64,000 nucleotides of DNA from Blasia pusilla (GCA_050084515.1 CM114271.1:43648001-43712000); one strand, 5' to 3'. Numbered from the stretch's first letter, positions 2,504-37,200 are shown. Program-made: numbers and translations. Notes: generated by a model not told the origin, from the sequence alone.

Positions 2504-7973
<5,470 letters not shown>

Positions 7974-13148: not shown

Positions 13149-13283
13149 ACATCTAGGGCACATCTATCGTCCCTGAGGAACCCTAGTGAGAGGTGGTGTC
13201 AAGCATGCCATATGTCATCCTCTCGAACATCCATTACAGACTAGCATAGTGGCTGCACTACGGGCAGAACCACACAACATACA
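13149..13283 (-). pseudogene. PHD finger at the C-terminus of the gypsy integrase
   Basis: In-frame translation CMLCGSARSAATMLVCNGCSRG*HMACLTPPLTRVPQGR*MCPRC gives a C4HC3 PHD pattern; both stops (TGA, TAG) are one base from TGG at positions where PHD fingers have aromatic residues. Confidence 0.85.
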
Positions 13284-14608: not shown

Positions 14609-14811
14609 GACTCAACTCCTTTCAAGTCTTGTTCCACGTTTGGTCCAGGTTTCTCAATCGCGACCATAACAACTGAAACGCGAAGCCTCGCTTGCGTCCC
14701 GTCTCTTGTCTCTCCTTCGAGACCACTCCAATGCACAAACCATCTTAGCGTGAGCCCGCTAATGTTCCAAAGTTCCGCTTTGGCACTCGTTTGATCATGA
14801 GGATCGCGATA
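14609..14811 (-). mobile_element. Terminal fragment of a second LTR family (same family as solo LTR 27016-28016)
   Basis: Reverse complement matches about 27016-27215 (tgtcgcgacccttatgaccaaacgagtgcc...). Confidence 0.8.
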
Positions 14812-17800: not shown

Positions 17801-19547
17801 ACAAAGAAACATTTTCTCTTGTCATAAATATCACTTCTCTCCGGATGCTGCTTTCCATTGCTACTGTTCGCAACGCTGAACTACATCAAATGGATGTCAA
17901 GACTACTTTTCTTCATGATGATCTACAAGAAATCATATACATGCATCAACCTCCCGGTTTTGAGGTAACTGATCAAGGTCCACAGGTATGTCTTCTCAAG
18001 AAAGATCTTTATGGCTTGAAGCAATCCTCTCGAGCTTGGTATCAAAAGATGGATGGATATTTGACTTCTGCAAGTTTTCTCAGAAGTACTTATGATCCTT
18101 GTTTGTATCACAAACAATCTTCTACAGATCAATTACTCATAATTGATGTATATGTAGATGATCTTGCTATTCTATCAGATAATCTCATTCAGCTACAACA
18201 ATTTCAAATTCATGTTCAATCCATTTTTAAAATGGTTGACATGGGAGAGCTTCATCACTTGTTAGGACTTCAGGTGGTAAGAGACAGGGCACGTCACAAG
18301 ATTTCTTTGCATCAACAAAGGTATATCTGTGAAAAACTTGTAGAATTCGGTATGAAAGGTTGTCATACAGTTTCTACCCCTTCTTTGCCTGGGACAACAT
18401 TGTCCAAGCCCACATCTGCTCCTACAAGTGATGATCTTGCTCATTTTCAGTAATATCCATATGCTACGATAGTTGGAAGTCTTATGTATGCTTCAACCAT
18501 GACTCGTCCCGACATCTCTTTTTTGTCGGCCGATTATGCAAATACATGTCCAACTATTCTATTGAGCATTGGCAAGCTGCCATGCATGTTCTAAGGTATT
18601 TGAAGGGAACTTCCAATATAGGTATCACCTTTGATGGTTCCACCCATGATATGCACATGCCAGTTTCGCTTCTTCTAAAGATGATAGAAAATCTATTTCA
18701 GGATTTGTTCTTATCATGGCAGGAGGTGCAGTACATTGGGCCTCAAGGAAGCGGGACAATTCTTCGCACGTCTACTCTGAAGCTGAATATATAGCCCTTA
18801 ATGAGGCCACCAAAGAAATACTTTGGATTCGACATTTACTTGCTTTGAGATTGGTTTTTTCACAAAAACTCCAACAATTTTTACGAAGACAATCAAGTCT
18901 GCAATTCAACTATCAAATATTTTTGTTCCAATTCCAAAATCCGACATTTGGAACTAAAATTCTTCTTCATATAGAACACATTCAACAACAAAATATTCGT
19001 CTACAAGAATGTAGATCTTGATTCAGTCTTTGATGTTTTGACTAAAAGTCTATCTAAAGACCAACATCATTTTTTACTCCAAATATTAGGATGTAGGATA
19101 TGCAATTGAGTGGGAGATACGACACTTTTCGAGTAGACAGCTTCATGTTCCTCGAGCTAGATTATCCTAGCTCAGTGGGAGTGTTAGATAAATACATTTT
19201 AGATAAAGGTGTTCGACTTAAAATGTGTTAAAGGAACTACCTAAATGCTGCTACTCTTAGGAGTCCGACATCTAACCTAAGACACTTGATCACTTGACTA
19301 AAAGGGCCACTTGGACATTTGGCTACTTGGCCACTTGACCACTTGGCTAAAAGGGCCACTTGGCCACTTGGTCAGTTGGGTACTTGGCCACTCAACCACA
19401 GACTATCTTATCTCTAGCCACTATCCAGATTAGTATATAGTCTGGGGCTTGAATAAACATCATACTTGAAGTTCTCCATAAAGTTAAGACACAACTTTAC
19501 CATTGTATCATTGCCATTGTGTATACATCTCTCATATATTTCTAACA
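14812..19547 (+). mobile_element. Ty1/copia LTR retrotransposon, degenerate (stops and frameshifts), 5' LTR truncated
   Basis: gag (FDGSDWKEWK), protease WILDSGSNSH, LWHNRMGH and rve integrase (HSDLAGP, RTDGGGEY), RT (YKARLVAKGYSQ, HQMDVKTTFL, YGLKQS, YVDDL), RNaseH in copia order. 3' LTR 19182-19547 (TGTTAGA...TCTAACA) after PPT agtgggag; 5' LTR remnant 14812-14951 matches 19408-19547. Confidence 0.95.
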
Positions 19548-20452
19548 CATCGCTTGACCCAAGACATGACGTCGTGATGCCTCTAGTAGTGACGGTAGTG
19601 TCGTCACTCCTATGGGGAATCCCATCGCTCGCTCTTGCTCATCACCGTTAGGCTCCCCCAACCTCTACACCTTGTCATCCCAAACCAAGCGAGATACGGC
19701 CTCCTTGAATACATAAAAAGCGGGAAAACTCACCAATGTGGGAAAGGCTGCTCGTGGCATGCCAATCCTGTTGACCACAGTCAATGGTGGTCGATCATCG
19801 TACCTCACTGCCTGTGATTGACGGTCCGGATCCAATATAGAATCCATCAACAAATCAAAGGGACACTCCACTCTTGTATAAGCCCTCCGTAACACCTCAT
19901 GTGGCACCAAGTTGGTCCACCAAAGACAAGGGCGATGTGCTCGTAAACCCACACTCGCCGCATCCAACAAAACTGTCGGGCTGATCCACGCACTTGATGT
20001 GCACTCGTCACCACACGGGACCTCGAATCGGCACATTCTCCAGAATTTATGCATGAGGACTAGATTGATGCTCTTGCAAGTGTCGCAAGATCCCCATCAT
20101 TTCCCAAAATAACTTGGACCAAGAGTCAACTAATCCACTACCCCGTCCATCACTCAACTGGCCCCGACATGGCCAACCAGCAATGACCAAGTTTATGGTC
20201 CCTACCCGCTCCAAGTCCTGCACCCCCAACAATGAAATATCCGTTGGTAGGGAGCTCTGGTTACCCTGAATGGCAGACGCACACAACAAGTCGGGAAAAT
20301 GGAGGCATAACTGCGCCACATGGTGAAGTAAAGCGCCCCTTGCAACATCATCAATCTCCACATATAGAAACTATTGCACGCGCACTCTAGCTTGCAAAAA
20401 AACAACTAACCCTGTGTTGATCCCTCCAAAGAGATCCAACACCCAAATACCC
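19548..20452 (-). pseudogene. C5 cytosine methyltransferase domain of gypsy copy A
   Basis: VLDLFGGINTG (motif I), MEIDD (II), DI (III), LVIAGWPCRG (IV), SKLFWE, ILENV (VI), RAHRPCLWWTNL (VIII); cut within motif X by the copia 3' LTR. Confidence 0.88.
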
Positions 20453-23400
20453 TCCTCTGGGATACACCACACAATCGGGGTGGTGTCCAAAGGGGTCAAA
20501 GGAGAACTCATGGCTACCAGGGGGTTCCTTTGACCCATCACACTCTAGTGCAAGTATCTCGCTCCACGTGGTCTGCACATGCTCAATGGCTAAGCATCGG
20601 TTTTTTTGCCTTTTTTTTGTCTAACAGTCCCCCTGGGGCCCTATCTGACAAGGCCCTTGGGGGGATTGTCATGAAGCTCCTCAGTCAAACCCCAAAGGGG
20701 CACCTCTCCTGCACAGACTAATGCCGCTATCATGACACTCCTCTCCATAGAAATGTCAGGAACGGGAGTATCCTCTACATGGACATGTCCCTCAATCAAA
20801 TCACTAGGCTAAGTGATGGCATTGCTAAATACTGCTAAGGTCGCCATCTCTCATGGCTGTTGCTCGATCACTGCACGTGTGAATCGAATGGGTAATGAGC
20901 TAAGGCGCCCCTCACCTGACTACCATCCTGGTATGTAGGATGATGACTCCTCCCAATAATCCAGGGAAATCCCATCGGGTATAACACTGCTCCACCAACC
21001 AAGACGTCGTAGGACTCTACATTAGTCACTATCGCCTTGGCTCACACTAGTGACTCATCTATAGGATGTCCCGGGTGAATCCTCACCACGACCTCCTATC
21101 GGGTGATATATTATATGGTACTCACTCCACCCAAGGATGTATGTATCCGGAATGGACAACGCTCCACATCGGCTCTCGTCAAGCCCAATCCTCTGAATGA
21201 CGCTTTCCCAACATCAGGGGTCGCACTCCTGAATCCAACAAAACGTGTTGCGGACTAAAAGCTCTACCTCCGGGACTCGCCAACTAGAAGACCTCTCCCC
21301 GGTTTTCTAGTAACACAACATCACAAGAAGCCATGGCACGCTCTATTGCGGGTCTAGCGAGCATCTCCGCCATCCTAGTAGCCGCAACCTGTTATGAATT
21401 TGACGTGGAGGGCCTGAGCATCCACTCCAAGGGCAGGTCCATCACCTCCTCTGCAATCACCTCTGAACGTGATGCAGGAACTCCAACTCCACGCTCACAT
21501 AGCGAAGCGGCGAGCCAGAACATCTCGGTGGGTGTACCTCCCAATGTCATAACATTGGAAGCAGAAAATAGCAGAGCACCATACACCATCGTGGCCGTCC
21601 CCAACATCGTACTCGATACATGCTCCTCATGAGCATCAACAATAGGAGTCGTCGCACTCATTTCTCCCATTTCCCTCCGTGCCTGCACACCAATAACATC
21701 ACCTACTCAACGGAAACTCTGATCATGACCCATCAATGGGGTCCTCATTGCCTCGGACAACGTGAAAGACTGAGGAAGCCTGGTTTGTTTCTTGGCTCCC
21801 CTTGGATGTGGACCCAACTCTGCAGCTGCTCCACATGTCATAACTGCGGCGGCCTCCATCTAGGCAACTCCGCACATCCAACCATGATCTTCCATATCTC
21901 TGGTTGCTCCATATGATGTCGATGCCACGGATCCGGCATTGGGTAACAGGAATGCCATAGCGGAAATCTGCTCCTATAGCTACGGTATGTGAGCAGCCAT
22001 CCTAGCCTCACGCCCGGCGTCTTCCTCTGTCGGGAAACTCCAGCTCCTCGTCCCCCAATGGGACCACCTGGTGCACGATGTCTAGCCCACCCGGATCGGA
22101 TACTCGCTCTAGTGCCCTTTTTGGCCCTTGGTCCGGACGTAACTGAGGGTGTAAATTGAAACACCTGGCGCATGTGTGACCATAACTCTGAAAATAGTCA
22201 CATTGATAACCTCCTGATGCAACACCATCTCCTCCTCCATGTTGAGGCACACGTCCTTGATCTTGACGAGTGCAATCGCGCTGATGATGGGCTCCACCAC
22301 ATGACCAACAAGTAATCGTAGGCAGTTGCTGTTGAGCCGCATATGAAGGCGCATGTCTCTGTGGCATGGCCTCCCGGTATCCTCCTTAAGTTCTTGGTGC
22401 CACAGTCAACCTATCTTGGAGTCCACGTTGCTGCACTAGTGGTGTAGGCAATCGTGACTGCTCTCGCCCAAAACCCATGGTGGCTACACTCTCCTCCGCC
22501 ATGTTGCGCTCAATATTCTCAGCGGTCCTAAAAACATCTCTCAACGTAGGTGAGATGTTCATAAGAAGTACCCCTTCCCGCACCCGTGTCCGCAGGTCCA
22601 GTCCAGCATCGCGTACCATAATTGGATAGCATGAGCCTCTGTCATCCCCTGAGTGATGTTGATCAACCGGTGCAAGCCATTGTAAGCCTCACGCAAACTC
22701 TCACCCAGGCACCTCTAGAAGTCGTGGATGCTCCGCAACTTCTCCGTCTGTACCCCATGGTAGCTCGCCCTCAACTGAACGAAGAACTCAACCATGGGGT
22801 TGAACCGGGACGAACCCGACTGGACGGTGCAACTGCTCCAGTGCGAGTTACCCCTCCTATAACATCACTGGTGGAAGAGGAAGTAGCCTATCCTGACTCC
22901 TTCTCCTCATCTGGAACGGACCCGTCCATGACACATAGTGTGGGTCATAGTAGAATCGCCATGCCTCAATCTCTTGGGCATATATGTGGGAAAAATCATG
23001 GTAATCGTCCATAGGTGCCCCTCTAGATGCTGGAGCATACCGTTCCATGCTGTAAATGGGTTGAACTATCTAGAGTTCCTAGCCCGCTGTGAGTCGCACC
23101 AACCCCTAAACTCCATGATGAAGTCGTGCAACTCTATCGTGCCTACTGCATTTGAGAACCTATGCGGTCCTCTTCCCCGGTCGTCCATCTTGTACGCCCA
23201 AGAAATAGAACTACTCAATGTTAGTGGCTAAGCATTACTTAACTCCTCTACACCCTCCTCCTTGTTTGAAGATGACATAGAAGGAGATCGAGGTGGTCCC
23301 GCACGTGGAGACCCTCGAAACCTCGCGCCACTCCGTGTAAATCCTCTAGAGCTACTCTTCGGTCCACCACCTCGCCTCTCAAAGTCTTGAAAGGACGTCG

Positions 23401-26400
23401 TGATGACCCTCCTGCCCCCCTCACACAATCACTCTCAACCTCGCGAGTAATCACGCAATCACTTAATCTAACATGCGGCACTCAAGCTACAGTCTCTCAT
23501 CGAGACGTGAACTATGCAGCAACAAGCGGCATGGTGCGAAAAATCAACTGATCTATAGTCTCATCGATAAACCATCCTCAACTCTGGACATCCCACACAG
23601 GTCTATGTGCCCTCAACCCATACGTCATCGATACTCTCAACATCAGCACGAAACCCAATATCCCAAATAACTTCACGATACCCGAAATTCCCTCATACGT
23701 GTAGGGTAAGAGACCAGAATGGGTAACCAAACAATAATCTCGATGTCGTTCCTCGCCAACTACAAATCTTGACCCCACCTTGGTCGTGAAGACAACTCCT
23801 CCTTAGCAAGTCATACTCCTCTCTTACTGATTCTGCTCAAACCTCCTCAAGATGTGGTGCGGATCCAACAGTACGATGCAGCACTAGCGGCACGGAACCG
23901 CTACAGAATGGCACAACACTCGATAATGGGATGCGGCACTCCGCGGCATACCCTCCGCAATCAGCAATTCACATGCTCTGCTCCTTAGTGAAGGAGCAGC
24001 TCTGCGATCGAGATGGTGCAGCGCGGCCACGAGCGGCATGGCGTGGCAATCGGCGGCGCGTTGCGGATACGGGCGTCATGGCACGGCACTCGATCGTCGT
24101 TGAGCGGCTAACAATCACAACATAGCAAACTGAAATGAAAACTCAAACACCATAATCCGAGGTCACCTAACATCATTGGTTGATGACAAAACTACGATGA
24201 CAATGGCGGCCAAAAAAAATTACGTGGTGTGGGTGCAAGTCAGAGAATCAACAGTCGTCGTGGAAGACCCTCCACTCCGTAATGGGGGCAATAGCAACCA
24301 AGGGTGGACAACGGCCGAACGCGGCTCTGAGCAGCGCTAGGTGAAAGCGGCGAACGAAGATGGACGGTGGACCATTGATGATAATGATGGACCTTTGACA
24401 CTGAAAATTGATCGTTGATGGTGATAGTTAACTGTTGACATTGACTATGATGGAAACGGCCACCGCCGGCACGGCAGCTAGTTTAGGGTTTGAACAATTT
24501 TACACTAAAAATTTCCTAGCAATGGAAATTTTGCAAAATTGACTATAACTTTTTGCTCACAACTCCAAATTATGTACAGTTTATTGCACACATGCACAGC
24601 TTCATGATCTACGACAATATCAAAAAATATTTTGAATCAAACATTCCAGTAAAAATTGACAGGGATTGTCGTAAAGCCCAACATCTCTTTCTCCTACACA
24701 AAATTTGGCAGCGCTTCCGCGCAGATTTCTCCCAAAAAAATGTAAAACCTATGAAAACACAAATCAACAAGCTACATGGTGCTCCCAAGAGCATCGGCAT
24801 GGGGAAATTCCCTCCCATACTCAATCCCTATAAAAAATTGGGCAGCACTTCCGCACGCCCAATTCTACACGAAAAATCAGCAAAAGAAACATAAAAAAAT
24901 GAGCGGCTCCAACTCCGGTGAGCAATCCCATGAACCGCTCAACGGGGAATACGATCCCCAACCTGAAGCATAAATAATTAGGAAATGATAATATATGTAA
25001 TAAAAAATATCCATAAAATAATACATTCTTGAGTACGTCCGAGAAAGAAGCACCTAACCTAATATAGGTAGATCAACAGTTCATTGAAAAAGAACAAACA
25101 AAAGAGTACAATATTCACAAATAATAATGATAAATAAATAAGGATATTCTAATGATACTTTTAATACTTAAACGTAAAAAATGCCTTATTATTAATTTGT
25201 GTGATTTTTTAAATGACAAAAATAAAATCAATAACCAAATTATCTAAAGTAGTGAGAGTGTGAGCAAAGACGTGAATGAAGAGAGGGCGGGCCATGAGTT
25301 CATAGACAAGACTACTTGTGAACAAAGAGAGGCGGGGCCGCAAGGGCATGAGTTTAGAGATGGCGCGAACGAGGAGAGAGGTTGACGGGAGAGCGCAATT
25401 AGGAGGGGGCGGGGGCGCGAGTTTGGAGACTAAATAGAACTGGGTGAGACAAGTTTCGCAAGTGGCGGAAGAGTAGGTACCTTGATATTCAAGAGTGAAA
25501 GAAGAGGGTGAGATTAGGGCAAAGGGCGAGTTAGGCTTATTCAAATCAAAGCTCAAGTGTCACGTCTTTTAGGATAGATCGGTGAGATCTAATAGAGCGC
25601 CTTTGTGAGTAATAGAAGACAGGCTCAATAGGTCGATGATGACGTGCTGAGGCCTCGAGAAACTTGAGAGAGCAGGTTCCCCCTTCGTTTCGCCTCATTT
25701 GGAGCCATATTCATAAACTTACTATTTTAGATAAGTACCATTTTGAGTATATGATCGACTTTATATTTTTGGTAAGTGGCCCTTGACCTCCTACATCAGG
25801 TCAAGAGCCAAGGAGGTGACTTGGGAGCATAGGTTACCATGGAGAGAGTTTGGGAGAGGGGAGGGGTATACCTCAAGGAGAGAGAGCTTAAGAGCTCATT
25901 CTCTCCTTATTGAACCTCTTGGCATAAGGCGGCAGAGCTACGGTCTTGCTTGCCTTGTGTGTGTAACCCAAGCCTCTCATTAGGAGAGTGGGTTTGATTT
26001 GATATTGAGAGAGATGTGTGAGAGTGCACACATGTGAGAACTATGATGTTGTGAGAGATATTGGATCTTATTTTACAAAGAGAGAATTAGTGAGTGAGAA
26101 AGCTTCATGGGGGAGCTTGCTGGTCACTCGTTGGTTTTTCAAGTTGGGGATCATATTCCCGGTTCAGCGGTTCATGGGAGTGCTCACCGGACCAAGAGCC
26201 GCTTACTTGTGATGTTGCCTTTGCCAATTTTTTGTGTGGAAGAGTGGCGTGCGGAAGCGCTGCCCGATTTTTGTAGGGATTGAGTATGGGGGCGAATTTC
26301 CCCATACTGGTGCTCTCGAGAGCACCGTGTAGCTTTTTGATTTTTATTTTCACACGTTATATATTTTCCTTGGGAGAAATCAACACAGAAGCACTGCCAA

Positions 26401-27015
26401 AATTTATGTAGGAGAAAGAGACGTTGGATTTTACGACAATCCTTGTAAGTTTTTACTCAAATTTCTCCTTCAAAATATTTTTTAACGTTGTTGTAGATCG
26501 TGAAGCTTCGCAGGCTGTGCAACAAACGGTGCATAGGGGACATAGACTTGTGTGGGATGTCTATAGTTGAGGATGGTATATCAATGAGACGATAGATCAG
26601 TTGATTTTCCGCACCACGCCACCTGTTGTTGCACAATACAGGTATAGTGAGAGAGTGTAGATTGAGTACCGCATGTTTAGTTTGAGTGATTGAGGGATTA
26701 CTCGCGAGATTGAGAGTGATCGTGTGAAAGGGGCACGAGGGCCATCACGACGTTCTTTCGTGATTTTGAGAGGCAAGGTAGTGGACCCGAGAATAGCTTT
26801 GAAGGGTTTACCCAAAGTGGTGTGAGGTTTTGAGGGTCTCCACGTGAGAGACCACCTTGATCTTCTTTTGTGTCGTCTTCAGACAAGGGGGAGCATGTAG
26901 AGGATTGTGTTAGTGATCCACCCTCCATATTGAGTGGTCCTACCAGTTGGGCGTACGAGAGGCAAGACCGAGATAGAGGACCGCATAGGTTTTCGGGTAT
27001 TGTAGACACTATAGA

Positions 27016-28016
27016 TGTCGCGACCCTTATGACCAAACGAGTGCCAAGCGGAACATCGGAACATTAGCGGGCTCACGCTAAGATGGTTTGCGCGTTGGAG
27101 TAGTCTCAAAGAGGAGACAAGAGATGAGACGCGAGTGAGGCTTCGCGTTTCAGATGTTGTGGTCGCGATCAAGAAACCTGGACCAAACGCGAATGAGACT
27201 TGAAAGAAGTCGAGTCTAGGAAGTGGGTTGCCAAAGGAAGGATCCGGATTTGGAACACCACTAGCGTTTAAGAGTTTCCGATTGTATTTATGGCCATAAC
27301 TTTTAGCGCCAAGATGCGTTTGGATTAAATAAGGGTGCGTTGGAAATCTTGTAGAAAGCCGGTTCAAACACACCAAAGAATGCTGGAAACGCATAAGCAG
27401 CGGCTGAGAAAAAACCCGGAAACGATTGTAAGTGGAGTCGGGTTGAGGGCCACAATGAAGGGCCCGACCCTCCTTTTCCAAAGGGGGGGGTTATTGGAGA
27501 ACCCCAGAAGTACTAGTAAGGGGGAAGGTCTTCGAGAGTGCTTGGAACCCAAACCCCACTTTGGGCGCCGCGGGGCGGCTCAAGGGCATGGAACGGAACG
27601 CGAGTTTGGGGGTTGGGTTGGAAAACCTGCACCAAGTCCATTGAGGTGATTTTAGACATCCCTCTTGGATTTCACCCCGCGACTCAATTACTTGGGTCTC
27701 GGTTTGGAACTCCCACGAGGACTGTTGAACAGTTGGGATCGCTAGGCGCGCGGGTGCCATTTCAGATCCCTGGACTATCTAGGAAGTCTGTTCCAAGTCT
27801 TGAAGGACTTGCCATGTTTTGGAAACTAGGACCTAAGGAAGGTTGAGCTTGATGAGACGCCGAGTTGAGGACTCGGTGGGTTGGAACGCTGGTCGACCCA
27901 GACCCGACTAACGAGAGTGCGTGTTTGGGTGCAGATCGGCGATGAGTTCGTGACCTACTGAACGTACGCTTCCGAAACACTAAAGATTGACGTTCAAGGA
28001 GAGTAGGGGCACGACA
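27016..28016. mobile_element. Solo LTR (1001 bp) inserted in gag of gypsy copy B
   Basis: TGTCGCG...CACGACA termini, exact 5-bp target duplication ATAGA (27011-27015 and 28017-28021); the site is empty in copy A (about 23130). Confidence 0.92.
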
Positions 28017-30678
28017 ATAGAGCTATATGACTTCACTGCAGAGTTTAGAGTTGGTGTGACTCACAACGGGCTAGGAACTCTAGAAAGTTCAACCTATTTA
28101 TTGCATGGAACGGTATGTTCCAGCATTTAGAGGGGGAACCCATGGACGATTACCATGAGTTCTCCCATAGATATACCTAGGAGATTGAGGCATGGCGACT
28201 CTACTATGACCCACACTATGTGTCATGGATAGTGCCGTTTCCAGATGAGGAGGAGGAGTCAAGAGAGGCTACTTCCTCTTCCACTAGTGATGTTTTGGGA
28301 GGGGTCACTCGCACTAGAGCAGTTGCACCATCTAGTCGGGTTCATCCCACATTTACCCCCGTGGTTGAGTTCTTCGCTGAGTTGAGGGCGAGCTACCAAG
28401 GGGTACGGACGGAAAAGTTACAGAGCATCCATGACTTCCAGAGGCGCCCGGGTGAGAGTTTGCCTGAGGCTTACACTCGCTTACGTTGGTTGATCAACGT
28501 CACTTAGGGGATGATAGAGGCTCAGGCTATCTAGATGGTACACGATGCTGGAAGGGACCCTACGGACACGGGTGCGGGAGGGGTGCTTCTTATCAACACC
28601 TCCCCTACATTGAGAGATGGTTTTAGGACCGCCGAGAATATTGATCGCAACATGGCGGAGGAGAGCATAGCATCCATGGGTTCTGGGCGAGAGCCATCAC
28701 GATTGTCTGCACCACAAGTGCATCAACGTGGACTCCGAGATAGGTCAACTATGGCACCACGAGCTTAGGGAGGATATCGGGAGGCCGTGCCACAAGGACT
28801 TGCGCTTGCATATGCGGCTCAGCAGCAGCCACCTACAATTGCTTGTTGGTCATGTGGTGGAGCCCATCATCAGCGTGATTGCAGTCGTCAAGATCATGGA
28901 CGTATTCCTCAGTATGGAGGAGGAGACGGTGTTGCACCAGGAGATTATCAATGTGAGTGTTGTCAGAGGTATGGTCACACATGCGTCAGGTGTTTCAATT
29001 TACACCTTGAGTTATGTCCGGACGGAGGGCCAGAGAGGGCACTAGAGCGAGTAGTCGGTCCGGTGGGCTAGAGATTGTGCATTAGGTGGTCCCGTTGGGG
29101 GACGAGGACCTAGAGTAACCCGACAGGGTGGTGGAGTTGCCCGTGGAGGAGGTAGAGTCCCACCACCTAGAGGCATTGAGGGAGATGCCGGACGTGAGGC
29201 TGGGATGGCTGCTCATATATAGCAGCTACAAGAGCATATTGCCACTATGGCATTGAGGTTACCCGATGCTAGATCCATGGCATCAACATCATATGGAGCA
29301 GCCAAAGATATGGAGGATCTTGGTTGGATGTGGGGGGTTGCCCAGATGGAGGCCGCCGCAGTTGTGACGCGTGGAGCAGTCGTAGAGTTGGATCCACAGT
29401 GAGGGGAAGCCAGGAAATAGACGAGGCTTCCTTAGTCTTTCACGTTGTTTGAGGCAATGAGGATCCCATCGATGGGTCGTGATCAGAGTTCCTAGAGAGT
29501 TCATGATGTTATTGGTGTGCAAGCACGGAGAAAGATGGGAGAAACGAGTGCGAAGACTCCTATTACTGATGTTCAGGAGGAGCATGTGTCAAGCACGTTG
29601 TTGGAGGCGGCCACTATTGTGTACCAGGCTCCTTTGTTTTCTCCTTCCGATGTTATGAGGTTGGGAATTACGCCCGCGGAGGTTTCCTGGCTGGCCGCTA
29701 CGCTATGTGAGCATGGAGTTGGAGTTCCTACATCATGTTCAGAGGTGATTGCAGAGGAGGTGATGGACCTGTTCTTGGAGCGGATGCTCGGGCCATCCAC
29801 GTCAGATTCATGGTAGGCTGCGGTTGCTAGGATGGCGGAGATGCCCGCTAGACCCGCGATAGAGCGGGCTATGGCTTCTCCTGGTGTTGTGTTGCTGGAT
29901 AACCAGGGAGATGTCTTCCAGTTGGCGAGTCTAGGAGGTAGAGCTTTTAGTCCGCAACGCGTCTTGTTGGATTCAAGAGCGCAACCCCTGATGTTGGGGA
30001 AAGCATCATTCAAAGGATTGGGCTTGACGAGAGCCGATATGGAGCATGGTCCATTCTGGATACACACATCCTTGGGTGGAGCAAATACCACACAGTATAT
30101 CACCCGACATGAGATTATGGTGAGGATTCGCCGAGATATCCTATAGATGAGTCCGTGGTGGGAGCCAAGGCGATAGTGACCAATGCAGAGTCCTACGACG
30201 TCTTGGTTGGTGAAGCACTGTTGTACCCAATGGGGTTTTCCCTGGATTACTGGGAGGAGTCAGCATCCTATAGACCAAGATGGCAATTGGTGATGATCGA
30301 ATTTGTTCATTACTTGTTCGATTCACAGGTGGAATGGTCGATTGACGGCTAGGAGAGATGGCAACTTTAGCAGCATTTAGGAGTGTCATCACGTGGCCTT
30401 CTAATTTGATTGAGGGGCATGTCCATTTAGAGGATATCCCCGCGCCTACCACTTCTAGGAAGAGGAGTGTCATGATACCCGCATCATTCCTTGGAGGAGA
30501 GGTGCCGCTATGGGGCTCGACTGAGGAGCTCCGACGTTTATCTGATGAGCATGTGCAGACCGCGTGGAGTGAGGCGTTTGCATCTGAGCATGACAGATTA
30601 GAGGAACCCGAGGTAGCCAGGAGTGCTGCTATAACCCCTTTGGACACCACCCCGATTGTGTGGTGCATCCTAGAGAAG

Positions 30679-31620
30679 GGTATTTGCGTGCTGGTTCTCT
30701 TTGGAGGGATCAACACTGGTTTAATTGTTGTTTTACAGGCAGGAGTGTGCATGCAACCGTACCTATACGTTGAGATTGATGATGTTGCAAGGCGCGCTTC
30801 ACTTCACCATGTGGCGCAGTTATGCCTTCGATTTCTCGACTTGTTGTCTGCGTCCGCCATCCAGAGATACCAGAGTTCCCTACTGAGCGACATTTCATTG
30901 CTGGGGGCGCACGACTTGGAGCGGGTAGGGGCCATAGAGTTGGTCATTGCTGGTTGGCCGTGTCAAGGCCAATCGAGTGCTGGACGAGGTAGCGGGTTTG
31001 CTGATACTCGGTCCAGGTTGTTTTGGGAGATTATGCAGATTTTACGACACTTGAAGGAGCATCAATCTCGTTCTCCAACATACATTTTGGAGAATGTGCA
31101 GCTTTTGGGCGATTCGAGGTCCCGCGTGGTGACGAGTGTACATCAGGTGCGCGCATGGATTGGCCCGGCAGTGTTTTTTGATGTGGTGAGTGTAGGTTCT
31201 AGAGCATACCGCCTGCGTCTTTGGTAGACCAACTTGGTCCCACATGAGATTTTGCGCAGGGCGTAAGCTAGAGTGGAGCGCCCCTCCGATTTGTTGGTGG
31301 ATTCTATTATGGATCCAGGTCATTGATCACAAGCAATGAGGCACAATGATCAATTGCCATTGACTATGGTCAACATGATTGGTATGCCAAGGGAATACTT
31401 TCCCACATTTGTGAGTTTTCTTGCTTCCTATACATTCAAGGAGGCCAAACCTAGCTTGGTTTGGGATGACCATGTATAGAGGTTGGTGGAGCCCAATGCC
31501 GATGAGCAAGAGCAAGTGATGGGATTCCCCACCAGAGTGATGGCAATACCATCACTATCAGAGGCATCACGACGTCATGTCTTGGGTCATGCGATGGACC
31601 TAAACTGCTTAACATGGACT
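30679..31620 (+). pseudogene. C5 cytosine methyltransferase domain (DNMT3/DRM-like motifs, non-permuted order) of gypsy copy B
   Basis: One reading frame: LFGGINTG (I), YVEIDD (II), SDI (III), LVIAGWPCQGQS (IV, catalytic Cys), RSRLFWE, ILENV (VI), RAYRLRLW*TNL (VIII), EQEQVMGFP (IX), SRRHVLGHAMD (X). Four in-frame stops (31225, 31264, 31324, 31477) and no frameshift. Confidence 0.92.
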
Positions 31621-34173
31621 TTCAGCTTAATTAGGAGTAGTTGAGCAATATCGTTTACGGATGCAACAGATCACAGCTATTGCGTTGGTGAGCCCCATGC
31701 CTACCAAGACAGTTGAGGCAATGGTTGGGGGCAAGATCCGAGGACATCGACACACCAGGGATGATCAAGAGAGACACCCTTGGACTTCTTGGGATGTTTT
31801 GCAGGTATGTCAGGAGATGGTAACCACAATATCGAGCGTGGTTTTGGGTACTGCATATGGAGATGAGAGTTATATTATTCGAGACAGGGTTGCACCATAG
31901 CAACCACCAACACCCGCATCGGAGAGTCCTACCGTAGTCACGATGGAGACTTGGGATCCAGATATGGGCCCTAAGTTAACAGAAGGAGAGCGATGCCGGA
32001 TTCATCAGTTCCTGAGGAGTTATAGGAGTTGGTTTGCATTTAGCATGCAGGATTTGGGTACGTTGAAGGATCCTTGGATCCACATTGAGTTATCAAGTGA
32101 CACGCCGATCTTCCAACGATCCTACAGGTATAGTGACATGGAGAGAATTCTGATTCAGAGTAGGAACTAGGACTTGGTTGGAGCAAGACTAGTGGAGATG
32201 TCACATGGAGAGTATGCATTTGCCACTGTCATGCCCGCCAAGAAGGTGTTGCATGGCAACTGGACGGATAGGCGGATGTGTGGAGATTACCGACCTATCA
32301 ATCGGCAGAAAAAGTCCGATTGGTATGCCATGTCCACTCTTGAGGAGATCTTTGATGCTATTGGGCATGCAAAGGTCTTCAGTTTGTTAGATCTTCGAGT
32401 CGGATACCATCAACTACCTACCACATTGGAGGACAGACAGACGGCATTTTGGGGCATCGATCCTCAAAGGAAGGATTGCTTGTACCAGTGGCGGTTCTTT
32501 CCATTTGGGTTAAAGAATATGCCGGCTGAGTTTTAGAGGGTCATGGATAGGATCTTGGCAGGTTTGGATTTTGCTAGATATTATATTGATGACATCGTAG
32601 TCTTTAGCGCCATGATTGAGGAGCATGAGCGACATCTAGAGAAGGTGTTCCGACGATTACAATTACATGGGGTGAAGCTACATCCAGGCAAGTGCAAGTT
32701 CTTCTACGACCACACTGAGTATTTGGGTCAAACGATATACCCATGTGGCCTTGGTGTACAACAGATGAAGGTAGAGGCTATTTCACGCATTCTACACCCT
32801 ACAGATATGAGTGGAGTTCATGCATTCATGGGATTGGCTAACTTCTATCAACAGTACGTCAAGGGTTTTACCTCGATTGTGCAACCGCTGACCTTCTTGA
32901 CCAAGATGGATCAAGAGTGGTACTAGGAGGATGAGCATGAGAGAGCATTTCAGATGCTCAAGGACAAATTGACGTCCACGCCCATATTGAGGAGCTTGAT
33001 CAGGGGACGTCCTTTCCAGTTGCATACCGATTGGAGCATGTTGGGGCTTGGAGCTATGCTCATCCAACATGACGATGATGGTAGAGAGTTCATGGTGGCT
33101 TACGGTAGTCGCTCGAGCAAAGTTGTAGAGGCAAAGTATAGCTTGTATGAGGGTGAGTGCTTGGCTATGGTGTGGGTTGTGGCACACTTCAGGTATTATC
33201 TATTTGGCAACCCCTTTATCATCATTATTGATCATTAGGCACTTAAGTGGTTGATGGAGTCCGACAAGTTTACAAGGAAGCTTGCAATGTGGGCTCTTTT
33301 GTTGTAGGAGCATGACTTCGAGGTGGTGCATAGACGTGGGACTCTCAACCAAGATACATATGGTTTGAGCCGTAACCCATGCCCGAGTCAGCGAGATGCG
33401 ATTGGAGCTCATTGGCATGGTGAAAGTGATGAGGAGTTGGTGCTAGGATGGCATGCGTCAGCCTATTTGGGCTTGTTGTCTATGGAGAGCCAGATTGTTG
33501 AGACTTCCATGGCGAGGTCTGATGGAGAGTCCTTAGATCTAGAGGCCGGTCAGGCGACGACAGGTGGCCAAGATATTCACAACGATGGAGTGGTCTTGGA
33601 GTACTTGCGTACTGACAGTGTCGCGAGCACAGTGGATGCTAGGGAGTGGGATCGGATCCTACAGCAAGCCAGACGATTTGGGTCGGAGGGCACACATGTG
33701 TTGCGAGTGTGGGAGGATGATAGAGTGCATGTAGTGCCTCATCCTTCGCAAAGAGTACGTTTGGTGCGTCATGCCCACGAGGAGTTGGGTCATTTTGGAG
33801 TGAAGCGGATGTACATCTTGCTCCAGATTTACTATTGGTGGCGAGGCATGCAGACTGACGTTCAGCAGTTTGTTGCCAAATGCATGCTCCGACTTCACAG
33901 TTGCATCCACTTCCGATCATCGGTTTAGTTTCTAGATGGATTTTGGATTTTGCAAGACCTTTACCTTTGACGGTGCGCCATAGTCATTATGTGTTGTTGA
34001 TGGTCGAGCACTTCTCGAAGTGGATAGAGTTGGTTGCATTGTCTGACAAAGCGAGTGAGGGAGGAAGTAGCGTATGCCTTCCTAGATCGAGTGCTGAGTC
34101 ATTACCCTGCACCAGCTGAGGTGTTGACAAACCAAGGTACAAAGTTTTACGGGGAGTTTCAGGCCTTGTAAGA

Positions 34174-34206
34174 TTAGGGTTTAGGGTTTAGGGTTTAGGG
34201 TTTAGG
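34174..34206 (+). repeat. Interstitial plant telomeric repeat (TTTAGGG), about 4.7 units
   Basis: ttaggg tttaggg tttaggg tttaggg tttagg read directly. Confidence 0.9.
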
Positions 34207-37200
34207 CTTTGCAAGATTATCCTGAGGCGGATGAACTAACGGAGAGGGTTGTGCAGACGGTGAAGAAAGAACTACGCAAGTATGGCTTGTAGAGAGGCCA
34301 CCTAGGAGATTGGGACCTTCAGTTGCCGTATTCAACAGGTAGGCATCCTTAGCGTCTTTCTCATCGTACTTGTTGCTTTATGGATGTGAGCCAGATTTAC
34401 CTACGACCATTCGTCGAGATGTTGGTGAGGTGTTGAACCTTGATAACTTGATGTATGGATGAGAGCATGTTCATAGAGGGCTGAGTTGTTCCAAAGAGTC
34501 ATGCCCATGGCGTTTGAGAACTTGGTGATTGCGCAACATCGGGATACATTGAGGTATGCGACTATTCGGGGGGGGTGGTTATCAACCTACTATCAGGAGA
34601 TTTCATCAGGGAGACTATGTCTACTTGCAGCAAACAACATCCACTACGTTGGATGTGACTGCAAGGTGCACCATCTTGAGAGTGCGTGACTTGAGGTGCA
34701 CCATCTTGAGAGTGCGTACCTTCACGAGTAGTGGAGGACATGCTCAAGAGGTTGAGGATGACCTACTAAGGCCCTGGGAAACTTGAGAGAGTAGGTTTCC
34801 CCTTCGTTTCGGCTCATTTGGAGCAATATTGAGGAACTTACTATTTTAGGCAAGTATCATTTTGAGTATATGGTCGATTTATATTTTTCGTAATTGGCCT
34901 TTGACCTCCTACATCAGGTCAAGAGCCAAGGAGGTGACTTGGGAGCATAGGTTACCATGAAGAGAGAGCTTGGGAGAGGTGAGGGGTATACCTCAAGGAG
35001 AGAGAGCTTGAGAGCTCATTCTCTCTTTGTTGAACCTCTTGGCATGAGGCGGAAAAGCTATGGTCTTGCTTGCCTTGTGTGTGTAACCGAAGCCTCTCAT
35101 TAGGAGAGCGGGTTTGGTTTGATATTGAGAGAGATATGTGAAAGTGCACACATTTGAGAGCAATGGTGTTGAGAGAGATTGGATCTTGATTTATTGGAGA
35201 TATTTTGGTACTTCTTATCTCCTTGTTTGGATACCATGAGTTAGCATGGGATCGTGTGTGTTTGTGTGTGTGTTCGGTGAAAGCGATGTATGTTGTGTAT
35301 GCTCACGACATGCTCTAGTCAAAACAACATTTTCAGTAAATTGTGTTATCTTTTATTTTTGTTACTTTCTCCTTTCGATAATCCCATTCACATTTTGTGC
35401 ACAATTCAGAATATTCCTGCCACATTATCGATTTTTCCAATTAGGTTCCACTTACTATCACATTACTCTAGCTAGCATATTGCATTTGAGTTCTTCGTCC
35501 CACTACCACTAACACTACCTTCAACATTAACTAATGTTATTGTCCATTTCTTCAACCAACTATTGTTAACAATCACAACACAAACTCCTTCCCGTTCCCA
35601 CTCAATTTCATTCAGTTTTACCATATCTTACGCCAATAAGTTCCTCGTACTCCACCTCAATTTACACTGCTCTTCACATATACCTACTTTTCAAGGGTTC
35701 TTCTAAGATGCATTACTAATACTACTCTTCCACTTTGTCAGTCCCTTTGGTCACGATTGCCAAAGTATTTAATTTTCCTTGCATTCGTCAACCTTACATT
35801 TCCCATGATCCTTTTTCACTCTTCTACAATTTTGCCTACAATTCCAATAGACACATTTTACAATTCGCTCCAATGCTTCAAACATAACTTCTAATCTCTT
35901 ACATCTCTTCACACATTCATGTTCAATTATCCATATCAACCTACTAACAAATTAAAATTAACTTTTCCTACCTTTTGTTACAACTTTCTGATCCTTTTAT
36001 AATAACAGAGCGTTACAAGAAATTACTATTTTACCAACATATGTTCATCATAATGTCCTATAGCACCTTATATTTTCCTCGTTTAGTAGTCCATTATAAC
36101 TTTTGGCTGCACATTGGTTGGATTTGGGGTATTGCGTATGTCGGCCCTGTTTTGTTACATGAGTTCATGAGAGTGAATGGAAGAGGGATAGAAACACCCT
36201 GAAGGATTCTTGAGTTGTGGGGGTGCGAGACATTGGAAGGGCTCGCTTTTCCGTGGATGTAAAACTCCATATTCTAAGGGCGCGATTCCATGGCTCAAAT
36301 TGTATTGGAGACGGTGGTAGTTAGCTAGATCTAAAACATCGTATGGTCTACTTACTTTTGAAACAATCAGAGTAATGAGTTCTTTTTGTCGGCGTCAATG
36401 GTTTTGGGCGGGGTCGTTGGAATTCTTGGGAAGACAAATTTTGGGCGCAAGAAGTCCGCATCGTCCTAGCGCCCTGCCATACCTTCCAATGCCGGTTTGT
36501 TATATGAAAACAAACTGGTTCTTCAAGTTTGTTTCGATAAGCGGCTTTCCGTTCTATTGTGGGTGCACTCGGGTTTCTTGTGTCCATTTTGTGTGTTCGG
36601 TTGCATGTGCGCTCAGTCCTCGATTATGGAGCTACCTGCCGGCAACCGGCGGAAATTCGCAGGACCCCTTATCCGGCTGTTGGAGCCGAATAAGGGGTTT
36701 CAGGGTGGCACGCGACCCCAAGATCCCTGCCAACTCGCAGTCGAGGTCGCCGCGATCATGTCACAGAAGGTGTGTTAGAAATAGGTGGTAATACCGTCAC
36801 AAACTTTGCGACGTTCATTGAATACTATCCGTAGGATCCGGAATCCGGGGTCGGGTCAGGTCATGACGATCTCGGCCGCATGGGACCGATGATTCGGGCG
36901 ACCGAGCTGGATCAGCGGAAGGATCTTGCGTTCTTGCTGCGGACGAAGACGGACGACTACGGTGCAATCACAGGGATTGCCACGCAACTGTCCTGAAGAA
37001 GGAGAAGACGGATTTCGGATTGAATCGCTGCGTCGGAGCATGTTTCTGGTTGCAGAAATCACAACAAATTGTCAACAGGAGACGGTGGCGCGTGTTTGAT
37101 GATTGGCAGGGGTGAAACTGTGAAGAAGAAGAAGGTGGAGGAGGAGGCAGGGTTGGATTGAACTTCTGCCGCGGAAGTTGTTTTCGGTTGCAGAAATCGC

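What the first reader, a model, noticed from the sequence alone, without database searches (positions are those of the whole stretch)
29832..32926. Ty3/gypsy retrotransposon encoding its own C5 DNA methyltransferase between protease and reverse transcriptase
Seen: a complete C5-MTase motif set (FGG, EID, GWPCQG, ENV, RxRLW-TNL, MGFP, RHVLGxAMD) in one frame, on the same strand as pol, between the aspartic protease and RT. The same domain follows the protease in copy A (19548-20452), so it is part of the family and not a one-off capture. Known: motif wording resembles DNMT3/DRM enzymes, but in the non-permuted order of DNMT3. From memory, DNMT-bearing retrotransposons have been reported in dinoflagellates and the charophyte Klebsormidium; I know of no description in a land plant but cannot check. 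Inference: the enzyme would be released from the polyprotein and could methylate the element's cDNA or its target site.
Basis: partly seen in the sequence, partly recalled or inferred. Interest (0 to 1): 0.93.

Follow-up and report, generated by a model that had tools for sequence, protein, structure and literature searches.

The report
Dead liverwort retrotransposon carrying a DNA methyltransferase
Two decayed copies of a jumping gene in a liverwort genome carry their own DNA-methylating enzyme domain, a kind of element reported so far from algae but which turns out to have many relatives in liverworts and peat mosses.

Summary
Window 30346-31623 (+) reads in one frame, with four stops, as a C5 cytosine methyltransferase (PF00145, 47.3 bits against a cut-off of 22). 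All motifs are in the non-permuted order. It lies between the protease and RT of a 9.7-kb Ty3/gypsy LTR element (25555-35299). An inverted second copy (12211-24967) carries the same domain. Both copies are dead.

The host is a liverwort, judged from a neighbouring PAP2 gene. Relatives with the same gag-PR-DNMT-RT order occur in Marchantia polymorpha (open 1,278-1,281-aa ORFs), Calypogeia, Sphagnum and Closterium, and on 77 metagenome loci. The domain is DNMT3-like by sequence and by fold. dN/dS is 0.13-0.39.

One new detail: the DNMT ends ORF1. A conserved in-frame stop separates it from RT-RH-INT. In the window this stop reads TAG CAA CCA, which fits the UAG_CAR_YYA readthrough motif.

The kind is known: KnitGypsy-Dnmt3 of Klebsormidium (PMC5890265). 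My ten literature searches found no land-plant description. Verdict: a new member of a known kind. Catalytic activity and its target are untested.

The parts
25555..35299 (+). Copy B: full-length but degenerate Ty3/gypsy LTR retrotransposon with a DNMT domain
   Evidence: Direct repeats 9.1 kb apart. Collinear with Marchantia P0003 and P0005 and Closterium P0180 by tblastn.
25555..26075 (+). 5' LTR of copy B; its 3' end differs from the other LTR copies
   Evidence: 88.7% identical to 34726-35193 over 471 nt. Alignment of the LTR copies.
34716..35299 (+). 3' LTR of copy B
   Evidence: It is 89.6% identical to the copy A LTR at 12211-12793.
28049..29026 (+). gag-like region of copy B (4 stops)
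   Evidence: tblastn with P0003 residues 32-358, 40.6% identity. A C-x2-C-x4-H-x4-C knuckle is visible in ORF 28769-29071.
29196..30286 (+). Protease region of copy B, in two frames with 6 stops. The active-site triplet reads DSR where intact relatives have DSG.
   Evidence: tblastn with P0003 residues 395-744. Translation compared with P0003.
30346..31623 (+). DNMT reading frame of copy B. The catalytic domain is about 30631-31623. In-frame stops lie at 31225-27, 31264-66, 31324-26 and 31477-79.
   Evidence: PF00145, 47.3 bits; gap-free alignment; DNMT3A/B/C are the best PDB matches.
31631..31897 (+). Linker after the DNMT, the tail of ORF1. It is shifted by one base relative to the DNMT frame in this copy.
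   Evidence: Matches P0003 residues 1196-1243 in frame 2. In 39 of 49 loci compared, the DNMT and RT share one frame.
31898..31906 (+). Conserved in-frame stop between ORF1 (gag-PR-DNMT) and RT-RH-INT. It reads TAG CAA CCA, which fits UAG_CAR_YYA.
   Evidence: Motif definition from PMC3542737 (passage read). The homologous stop separates two intact same-frame ORFs in L046.
31952..34403 (+). RT, RNase H and integrase region of copy B, with more than 10 stops and one frame change
   Evidence: Pfam RVT_1, RT_RNaseH and Integrase_H2C2 on the read-through P0002. tblastn with P0005 and P0180.
12211..24967 (-). Copy A: inverted, more degraded copy. It lacks its 5' LTR and its RT-RNase H part.
   Evidence: 79-89% identical pieces; no LTR sequence upstream of the shared leader.
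19548..20585 (-). DNMT domain of copy A. It has a 74-bp insertion, 10-bp and 4-bp deletions and a 1-bp insertion, and ends inside motif X.
   Evidence: Nucleotide alignment. tblastn with P0003.
14809..19547 (+). Nested Ty1/copia element inside copy A, taking the place of RT-RNase H
   Evidence: 143-nt direct repeats at both ends (family D6). Pfam RVT_2, gag_pre-integrs, rve and Pol_BBD.
1..158 (-). Fragment of a third LTR of the same family, cut by the window edge
   Evidence: 85-87% identical to the LTRs of copy B.

Best explanation
The window holds two old, inactivated, head-to-head copies of a Ty3/gypsy LTR retrotransposon family of a liverwort. The family's first open reading frame encodes Gag, an aspartic protease and, at its C-terminus, a DNMT3-like C5 cytosine DNA methyltransferase. 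RT, RNase H and integrase follow in the same frame behind one conserved stop codon.

Shown here: the domain identity, its position, its presence across a large green-lineage family, its DNMT3-like sequence and fold, invariant catalytic residues, purifying selection on the domain, and the conserved in-frame stop.

Inferred: in live family members Gag-PR-DNMT is the main translation product, and Gag-PR-DNMT-RT-RH-INT is made by occasional readthrough of the UAG. The protease would release the DNMT inside the virus-like particle or the pre-integration complex. There it would methylate the newly made cDNA, or DNA at the insertion site, using SAM. The element would then enter the genome already carrying the host's own mark. 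I rate that last step at roughly 40%. The two copies in this window can no longer make any of these proteins.
For: - **Domain identity:** PF00145 at 47.3 bits on the window's own frame, with motifs I-X in order.
- **Collinearity:** the domain aligns without gaps to intact homologues.
- **Same order in relatives:** Marchantia P0005 has PR, DNMT 460-529, RT 833-919 and RH. Closterium P0180 has CCHC 323, DNMT 689-761, RT 1091 and INT 1547-1713. The order is also seen on DNA in metagenome loci.
- **Architecture counts:** of 245 family proteins, 82 show PR-DNMT-RT-type order, 101 show RT-RH-DNMT-INT, 55 hold the DNMT alone and 7 gave no DNMT hit.
- **Family size:** 382 50%-identity clusters at E<=1e-30.
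- **DNMT3-like sequence:** a PDB profile search ranks DNMT3A/B/C at about 60 bits, DRM at 33-35, M.HhaI at 29 and DNMT2 at 21-23. DNMT1 is not listed.
- **DNMT3-like fold:** an AlphaFold model of the Marchantia domain has pLDDT 93.6. Its best PDB folds are DNMT3A/3B/3C, E 3e-18, target TM 0.81.
- **Catalytic residues:** the Cys of PCQ, the Glu of ENV and one Arg of the RxR motif are invariant in 26 diverse domains.
- **Purifying selection:** dN/dS is 0.39 (bootstrap 0.27-0.57) between window copies A and B, 0.16 for L005 and L003 versus L024, and 0.13 for L046 versus L045.
- **Conserved stop:** L046 has ORF1 of 1,369 aa and ORF2 of 1,047 aa in one frame, separated only by TAG. In 46 of 52 loci, window copy B included, the nearest in-frame stop upstream of RT is followed by CAA or CAG.
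- **ORF1 length in Marchantia:** five proteins of 1,278-1,281 aa.
- **Readthrough motif:** the UAG_CAR_YYA definition comes from PMC3542737.
- **Precedent:** PMC5890265 reports that SymbioDIRS-Dnmt3 domains methylate CG de novo in yeast, and proposes self-methylation of cDNA (passages read).
Against: - **No activity data:** no catalytic activity has been shown for any member of this family.
- **Closest published relative:** the KnitGypsy-Dnmt3 domain gave no methylation in yeast. The authors call that result inconclusive.
- **Dead copies:** both window copies are dead.
- **Decay in relatives:** only 3 of 36 metagenome loci with a one-piece DNMT hit lack stops. L003 versus L005 gives dN/dS 0.82, as expected for neutral decay between close copies.
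- **Weaker stop context in most loci:** 38 of 52 loci read CAA CCC after the stop. That fits CAR but not the final A of YYA, and 13 of 52 have TAA. Readthrough is therefore an inference from conservation.
- **Departures from DNMT3:** motif IV is PCQ here, whereas the DNMT3A chain aligned has PCN. No PWWP or ADD domain is found. 'DNMT3-like' is therefore not the same as 'a DNMT3'.
- **No phylogeny:** no tree with named reference DNMT classes could be built.
Confidence: 0.8

Rival explanations
1. The DNMT domain is catalytically active, but its substrate is not the element's own cDNA. It could methylate host DNA around the insertion site or genome-wide, altering host silencing. It could instead methylate the element's RNA.
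For: The catalytic residues are conserved and under purifying selection, which fits any catalytic role. PMC5890265 raises RNA methylation as a possibility for the LINE-borne DNMT (passage read).
Against: The best sequence and fold matches are the de novo DNA methyltransferases DNMT3A/B/C. The tRNA enzyme DNMT2 scores far lower, 21-23 bits against about 60, and the fold search agrees. Synthesis as part of the Gag-PR polyprotein argues for action inside the particle, but this is inference.
Confidence: 0.25
2. The domain is kept as a non-catalytic module. It would bind DNA or chromatin and steer integration, much as chromodomains do in chromoviruses.
For: An earlier scan note (e1-2850094, unchecked) describes a diatom gypsy element with a methyltransferase fold that lacks catalytic residues. 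In the sister architecture the DNMT sits next to the integrase and a PHD finger.
Against: In this family the nucleophile Cys, the ENV Glu and one Arg of the RxR motif are invariant across 26 diverse domains. The FxGxG SAM motif is intact in the five sequences. Such conservation is not expected for a mere binding module.
Confidence: 0.1
3. The domain is a one-off capture of a host DNMT3 gene fragment, or an assembly chimera, with no meaning for the element family.
For: Nothing beyond the prior that degenerate TEs often hold captured fragments.
Against: It is present at the same place in both window copies. It is present in 73 database proteins and 77 metagenome loci. It is collinear with open 1,278-1,281-aa Marchantia ORFs and under purifying selection.
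Confidence: 0.01

Closest known systems
KnitGypsy-Dnmt3 of the charophyte alga Klebsormidium nitens (de Mendoza et al. 2018, PMC5890265; passages read)
   Same: It has the gypsy domain set with an intronless, non-permuted Dnmt3-related domain inside the polyprotein. Key catalytic residues are kept, and purifying selection acts on the domain: Ka/Ks below 0.2 there, 0.13-0.39 here.
   Different: The host there is an alga; here it is a liverwort, with relatives in other liverworts, Sphagnum, Closterium and Scenedesmus. The paper's figure legend says the repeats are arranged as in DIRS elements. Here and in relatives they are plain direct LTRs. I obtained no K. nitens sequence, and the figure showing its domain order is not held. 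Common descent and the position of its DNMT are therefore untested.
SymbioDIRS-Dnmt3 and SymbioLINE-Dnmt of Symbiodinium (same paper)
   Same: They are retrotransposon-encoded C5 methyltransferases. The DIRS-borne one is Dnmt3-related and methylates CG de novo in yeast.
   Different: They belong to other retrotransposon classes (DIRS, LINE) and another eukaryotic supergroup. The authors regard the acquisitions as independent.
Catalytic domain of animal DNMT3A/3B/3C (PDB 6f57, 6w89, 6u8p, 8tci)
   Same: These are the best sequence matches (E about 1e-15) and the best fold matches (E 3e-18, target TM 0.81). The motif order is the same.
   Different: Identity is only 20-23%. Motif IV is PCQ here and PCN in DNMT3A (alignment). 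The segment between motifs VIII and IX is longer here. There are no PWWP or ADD domains. The domain is fused to Gag-PR.
Plant DRM2 (PDB 7l4c, 4onj)
   Same: It is a plant de novo methyltransferase related to DNMT3.
   Different: DRM is circularly permuted. It matches only profile positions 15-144, mapping to chain positions 225-351, and scores 33-35 bits against about 60 for DNMT3.
EpiLTRs of Cymbomonas and Euglena (bioRxiv 10.64898/2026.05.21.726589; passages read)
   Same: They are Ty3/gypsy-type LTR elements that carry a cytosine DNMT.
   Different: There the DNMT is DNMT4-related, appended to the 3' end of pol, and accompanied by an adenine methyltransferase and a chromodomain. None of these is seen here.
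Type I stop-codon readthrough, UAG_CAR_YYA, of tobamoviruses (Firth and Brierley 2012, PMC3542737; passage read)
   Same: An in-frame UAG is followed by CAA CCA in the window, and by CAG TTA, CAA CTA or CAA CCA in five metagenome loci. The polymerase part lies downstream of the stop.
   Different: This is a retrotransposon, not an RNA virus. Most relatives read CAA CCC, and some have TAA. Readthrough has not been measured.

Membership tests
C-5 cytosine DNA methyltransferase (Pfam PF00145) | Profile match above the curated cut-off | tested here: met
   E 2.5e-12 and 47.3 bits against a cut-off of 22, on the window's own read-through frame.
C-5 cytosine DNA methyltransferase (Pfam PF00145) | Conserved motifs: I (FxGxG), IV (PC nucleophile), VI (ENV), VIII (RxR), IX and X | tested here: met
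   All are visible in order. They align without gaps to intact homologues. The Cys, the Glu and one Arg are invariant in 26 domains.
C-5 cytosine DNA methyltransferase (Pfam PF00145) | An open reading frame able to give an enzyme | tested here: not met
   Copy B has 4 in-frame stops. Copy A has frameshifts and a truncation. Relatives have open frames: L003, L005, L024, L045, L046 and the Marchantia proteins.
DNMT3 family | Closest to DNMT3 among characterised methyltransferases, by sequence and by fold, with non-permuted motif order | tested here: met
   for sequence. for fold, using the model of the Marchantia homologue.
DNMT3 family | Placement inside the DNMT3 clade in a phylogeny with DRM, DNMT1/MET1, CMT, DNMT2, DNMT4-6 and bacterial enzymes | not tested
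Only PDB score ranking is available.
DNMT3 family | N-terminal chromatin-reading domains (PWWP, ADD) of animal DNMT3s (recalled) | tested here: not met
   Pfam finds none in the window frames or in the 11 relatives scanned. The N-terminal partners are Gag and PR.
DNMT3 family | Motif IV reading PCN, as seen in the DNMT3A chain aligned | tested here: not met
   The family has GWPCQG in all five sequences. The Q is nearly invariant.
Ty3/gypsy (Metaviridae) LTR retrotransposon | Direct LTRs flanking gag, and pol in the order PR-RT-RH-INT | tested here: met
   LTRs. Pfam RVT_1, RT_RNaseH and Integrase_H2C2 in that order. tblastn map. Relatives have LTRs 8.7 kb apart.
Ty3/gypsy (Metaviridae) LTR retrotransposon | Primer binding site, polypurine tract and target-site duplication | tested here: inconclusive
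   The inner end of copy B's 5' LTR is rearranged and copy A lacks its 5' LTR. I recognised no tRNA-complementary site.
KnitGypsy-Dnmt3 lineage (PMC5890265) | Sequence relatedness to the K. nitens copies | not testable with these tools
   None of the organism-named hits among the 73 proteins is from Klebsormidium. Of 20 representatives looked up, only 2 carried an organism name, and neither was Klebsormidium. The paper's supplements are closed.
KnitGypsy-Dnmt3 lineage (PMC5890265) | DIRS-like arrangement of the terminal repeats (figure legend) | tested here: not met
   The window copy and the relatives L005 and L051 have plain direct LTRs.
Type I programmed readthrough (UAG_CAR_YYA) | UAG followed by CAR YYA, in frame with a downstream coding region | tested here: met
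   The window reads TAG CAA CCA at 31898-31906, in frame with RT. Six of 52 loci fit the full motif and 46 of 52 fit stop+CAR.
Type I programmed readthrough (UAG_CAR_YYA) | Measured readthrough product | not testable with these tools
   This needs a reporter assay or proteomics.

The most novel reading that the evidence does not exclude
A green-lineage clade of Ty3/gypsy elements, still carrying open frames in the model liverwort Marchantia polymorpha, makes Gag-PR-DNMT3-like as its major protein. It makes RT-RH-INT only by UAG readthrough. The methyltransferase would therefore be packed into particles at Gag-like amounts and would methylate the cDNA before integration. This would be the first transposon-encoded cytosine methyltransferase described in land plants. 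A sister architecture (RT-RH-DNMT-INT-PHD) in chlorophytes shows that the module was repositioned once within the lineage.
Probability: 0.3. Interest if true: 0.75.

Novelty: new member of a known kind. Interest (0 to 1): 0.55.

Why it matters
Cytosine methylation is the main way plants silence transposons, so a transposon that brings its own de novo methyltransferase runs against expectation. The one published streptophyte case is from an alga, and its activity test was inconclusive.

The same kind of element is common in liverworts and peat mosses. In Marchantia polymorpha, a transformable haploid model, it has open 1,278-1,281-aa gag-PR-DNMT frames. That makes two questions directly testable: what the enzyme methylates, and whether it helps the element or the host.

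The conserved stop between DNMT and RT also suggests an unusual expression plan, in which protease and methyltransferase are made in excess over RT and integrase.

The two copies in this window are only fossils.

Tried and rejected
- **Whole genome:** none is held for this window. I could not search the host for intact copies or count the family.
- **Sequencing runs:** 21 runs were listed. No holder is on record as RNA, and the best DNA holder has 0.22 of the words.
- **Laying reads:** Nothing was laid, so I have no expression or copy-number data.
- **Exact look-up of the neighbouring PAP2 protein:** not in the collection.
- **Earlier scan notes:** there are none for this genome or this sequence.
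- **Finding Klebsormidium relatives:** no organism-named hit is from Klebsormidium. Of 20 representatives looked up, only 2 carried organism names (Scenedesmus, Closterium). The relation to KnitGypsy-Dnmt3 stays open.
- **Reference phylogeny:** a tree with named DNMT classes was not possible, because I had no admissible reference sequences. PDB score and fold ranking were used instead.
- **Primer binding site and target-site duplication:** not recognisable, because the LTR ends are rearranged.
- **L046 repeats:** no terminal repeats are found on its 9.3-kb contig, so that intact relative's LTRs were not seen.
- **Literature:** ten searches and passages from nine papers turned up no description of a DNMT-bearing retrotransposon in a land plant. 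Supplementary files, which may list such copies, are closed. Subscription journals are not covered.
- **One-off capture or assembly chimera:** considered and rejected (see rivals).

Full report
**1. The observation**

I read window 30346-31623 (+) through with X at the stops. This gives 426 codons in one frame with four stops, at 31225-27, 31264-66, 31324-26 and 31477-79.

The reading shows LFGGINTGL, YVEIDD, IAGWPCQG, YILENV, RAYRLRLW-X-TNL, VMGFP and RRHVLGHAMD. This is the full C5-methyltransferase motif set in the non-permuted order. Pfam PF00145 matches at E 2.5e-12 and 47.3 bits, against a curated cut-off of 22.

The frame that follows, 31631-34000 read through nine stops, holds RVT_1 (E 3e-24), RT_RNaseH (5e-29) and Integrase_H2C2 (1.5e-13).

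**2. The two elements**

Copy B spans 25555-35299 (+).
- Its LTRs lie about 9.1 kb apart and are 88.7% identical over 471 nt.
- By tblastn it is collinear with three relatives:
  - Marchantia polymorpha P0003 (gag-PR-DNMT) covers 28049-31798.
  - M. polymorpha P0005 (RT-RH) covers 31952-33706.
  - Closterium P0180 (integrase) extends the match to 34403.
- It is thoroughly dead. The ORF1 part falls into five pieces in frames 2, 3, 2, 1, 2, with 15 stops. The RT-RH-INT part has more than ten further stops.
- The protease triplet reads DSR where Marchantia has DSG.

Copy A spans 12211-24967 (-) and lies head to head with B.
- It has the same gag, PR and DNMT at 79-83% DNA identity.
- Its DNMT (19548-20585) carries a 74-bp insertion, 10-bp and 4-bp deletions and a 1-bp insertion. 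It ends inside motif X at 19548.
- A Ty1/copia element is nested there at 14809-19547, with RVT_2, gag_pre-integrs and rve. It takes the place of RT-RNase H.
- Copy A also lacks its 5' LTR.

A fragment of a third LTR lies at 1-158.

**3. The host**

The intronless PAP2 gene 2 kb downstream of copy B (37461-38138; PF01569) finds liverwort proteins as its five best named hits.

| Hit | Identity |
|---|---|
| M. polymorpha | 62% |
| M. paleacea | 60% |
| Riccia fluitans | 59% |
| R. sorocarpa | 56% |
| Calypogeia fissa | 56% |
| a lycophyte | 53% |
| Sphagnum | 42% |

The host is therefore a land plant. By inference it is a liverwort not close to Marchantia. Other host genes are isopropylmalate-dehydrogenase exons and RmlD-like exons.

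**4. The family**

A search with the window's domain among longer proteins gave 14 hits from 2,901 candidates. Eleven were M. polymorpha 'hypothetical proteins' (49-61% identical), two were unnamed and one was from Sphagnum fallax.

The 90% cluster of P0003 has 18 members. Five of them are 1,278-1,281 aa long, including copies on the V chromosome.

A profile of five domains (A1, gap-free) found 73 proteins among the 8,000 candidates scored. These add Calypogeia fissa, Sphagnum troendelagicum and Closterium NIES-53 and NIES-54.

Against 1.84 billion cluster representatives the profile found 7,738 proteins at E<=1e-3, 1,550 at <=1e-10 and 382 at <=1e-30. Of 20 representatives looked up, only two carried organism names: 'pol' of Scenedesmus sp. 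and a Closterium NIES-68 protein.

A scan of metagenome contigs gave 77 loci.

**5. Two architectures**

I located the PR, DNMT, RT, RH and INT domains with phmmer in 245 family proteins. These were all the hits then held, leaving out the PAP2 hits.

| Domain order | Proteins |
|---|---|
| DNMT after PR and/or before RT (type 1) | 82 |
| DNMT after RT-RH and/or directly before INT (type 2) | 101 |
| DNMT alone | 55 |
| No DNMT hit | 7 |

Pfam confirms both types. Type 1 is seen in Marchantia P0005 and Closterium P0180. Type 2, often with a C-terminal PHD finger, is seen in P0179, P0182 and P0184. Scenedesmus is type 2.

I built a FastTree of 172 DNMT domains. I left out near-identical Marchantia proteins, extra cluster members, and unnamed domains shorter than 270 aa. 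On this tree the type 1 / type 2 label needs a single change, with DNMT-only rows not counted.

The window's domain sits in a 100%-supported group of nine type 1 rows: two Sphagnum, two Marchantia, one Calypogeia, three unnamed and the window itself.

**6. What kind of methyltransferase**

Against all PDB sequences the profile ranks as follows (the single window sequence gives the same order).

| PDB family | E-value | Bits |
|---|---|---|
| DNMT3A/3B/3C | about 1e-15 | 58-61 |
| DRM | 1e-7 to 8e-7 | 31-35 |
| M.HhaI | 5e-6 | 29 |
| DNMT2 | 3e-4 to 3e-3 | 20-23 |
| DNMT1 | not listed | |

An AlphaFold model of the Marchantia domain, built with a 26-row alignment, has pLDDT 93.6 and pTM 0.92. 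Its best PDB folds are DNMT3A, 3B and 3C, at E 3e-18, target TM 0.78-0.81 and 20-23% identity.

The Cys of PCQ, the Glu of ENV and one Arg of the RxR motif are invariant in those 26 domains.

It differs from canonical DNMT3 in three ways. Motif IV is PCQ, not the PCN seen in the DNMT3A chain. The stretch between motifs VIII and IX is longer. No PWWP or ADD domain is present. I therefore call it DNMT3-like. Clade membership needs a phylogeny that I could not build.

**7. Selection**

| Comparison (DNMT domain) | dN/dS |
|---|---|
| Window copies A vs B, 322 codons | 0.39 (bootstrap 0.27-0.57) |
| L046 vs L045, both with open DNMT frames (dN 0.033, dS 0.262) | 0.13 |
| L005 vs L024 and L003 vs L024 (dS near saturation) | 0.16 |
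| L003 vs L005, close copies | 0.82 |

The A-versus-B value means part of their divergence arose while the domain was under constraint. The L003-versus-L005 value is what neutral decay gives.

Most copies are fossils. Of 36 loci with a one-piece DNMT hit, only three have no stop.

**8. The stop between DNMT and RT**

In locus L046, ORF1 (976-5082; 1,369 aa; gag-PR-DNMT) and ORF2 (5086-8226; 1,047 aa; RT-RH-INT) are in the same frame. A single TAG followed by CAG TTA separates them.

In 39 of 49 loci compared, the end of the DNMT and the start of RT share a frame.

I examined 52 loci with an RT start and enough upstream sequence, window copy B included. In 46 of them the nearest in-frame stop upstream of RT is followed by CAA or CAG.

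| Stop and context | Loci |
|---|---|
| TAG CAA CCC | 27 |
| TAA CAA CCC | 11 |
| TAG CAA CCA | 2 |
| TAG CAA CTA | 2 |
| TAG CAG TTA | 2 |
| TAG CAA CTC | 1 |
| TAA CAA CTC | 1 |

The window reads TAG CAA CCA at 31898-31906. This fits UAG_CAR_YYA, the type I readthrough motif of tobamoviruses (PMC3542737, passage read).

The 1,278-1,281-aa length of the open Marchantia proteins agrees with ORF1 ending there. One of the nine stops is thus probably native.

I infer that Gag-PR-DNMT is the main product and that RT-RH-INT is made by readthrough. This has not been measured, and most relatives lack the final A of the motif.

**9. Mechanism and rivals**

The best-supported reading is that live members make an active, SAM-dependent, DNMT3-like enzyme as part of the Gag-PR polyprotein. 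It would act on the element's cDNA, or at the insertion site, as proposed for other retrotransposon DNMTs in PMC5890265.

Conservation of the catalytic residues and purifying selection support catalysis. The fold supports DNA rather than RNA as the substrate. Co-translation with Gag supports action in the particle. All three are inferences.

Against this, no member has been assayed. The KnitGypsy-Dnmt3 domain gave no methylation in yeast, which the authors call inconclusive.

The rivals are action on host DNA or on RNA, a non-catalytic tethering role, and a chance capture. The last is refuted by the calls above.

**10. Comparison with what is known, and novelty**

Retrotransposon-borne DNMTs are established for Symbiodinium (DIRS, LINE) and for K. 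nitens (Gypsy) (PMC5890265). A 2026 preprint lists these as the known cases and adds DNMT4-like 'EpiLTRs'. [quoted passage not shown]

Ten full-text searches found no paper that describes such an element in a land plant. These include a search for six Marchantia gene identifiers. The main text of PMC5890265 does not mention Marchantia. Supplements are closed and subscription journals are not covered, so the absence is provisional. The proteins themselves are public, as hypothetical proteins.

I file the finding as a new member of a known kind. Three points may be new:
- the occurrence in embryophytes, including a genetic model;
- the ORF1-terminal position ahead of a conserved leaky-type stop;
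- the clean split into two architectures.

The copies in this window are fossils.

**11. What is missing**

Noticed in passing
P0179, P0182, P0184, P0197, P0274 (Scenedesmus sp.) and L060:1-5541: A sister architecture places the same DNMT3-like domain between RNase H and integrase, often with a C-terminal PHD finger: 101 of 245 proteins. On the DNMT tree it separates from the PR-DNMT-RT type with a single change. I found no description of it in my searches.
   Followed up: partly
window 31477-31479 (copy B) and the aligned codon of copy A near 19665-19667: Both dead copies carry TAG at the same DNMT codon. Either their common source was already defective there or the site mutated twice in parallel.
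   Followed up: no
window 30346-34000: The stops in copy B are biased to TAG: 2 of 4 in the DNMT frame and 7 of 9 in the RT-RH-INT frame, one of which is probably native. Differences between copies A and B in the DNMT are 111 transitions against 58 transversions. This may reflect deamination of methylated cytosines.
   Followed up: partly
window 14809-19547: A Ty1/copia element with RVT_2, gag_pre-integrs, rve and Pol_BBD, flanked by 143-nt direct repeats that are 94% identical. It is nested in copy A exactly at the end of the DNMT.
   Followed up: partly
window 27015-27216 and 14609-14812: A 200-nt piece of copy B's long leader, upstream of gag, recurs in copy A directly next to the integrase end at 87% identity. 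This points to rearrangement or a shared inserted fragment. Copy B's leader is about 0.9 kb longer than in relatives such as L005.
   Followed up: no
P0016 and P0069 (Sphagnum fallax): The Sphagnum fallax family member is gene BDL97_09G086500, and the Sphagnum PAP2 homologue is BDL97_09G087500 on the same chromosome. In the window the element also sits next to the PAP2 gene. This is probably coincidence.
   Followed up: no
P0016 versus P0003: The Sphagnum fallax protein aligns with the Marchantia one from the first residue of Gag onwards, at 49.6% identity over 1,261 columns, many of them gaps in the Sphagnum gene model. Moss and liverwort DNMT domains share a 100%-supported clade. Whether this reflects vertical descent or transfer between bryophytes is open.
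   Followed up: no
P0017, P0018, P0019, P0022 (Marchantia polymorpha): Several members of the Marchantia cluster lie on the male sex chromosome V (gene names Mp_Vg...), including two full-length 1,281-aa proteins.
   Followed up: no
window 45686-47046: A tandem duplication with a period of about 838 bp, in two blocks 84-85% identical (families D1 and D4). Its nature is unknown.
   Followed up: no
window 39358-39715 (-): An ORF with a CCHC-like zinc knuckle and Arg/Gly-rich repeats, probably a gag fragment of another retroelement. It has no Pfam match.
   Followed up: partly
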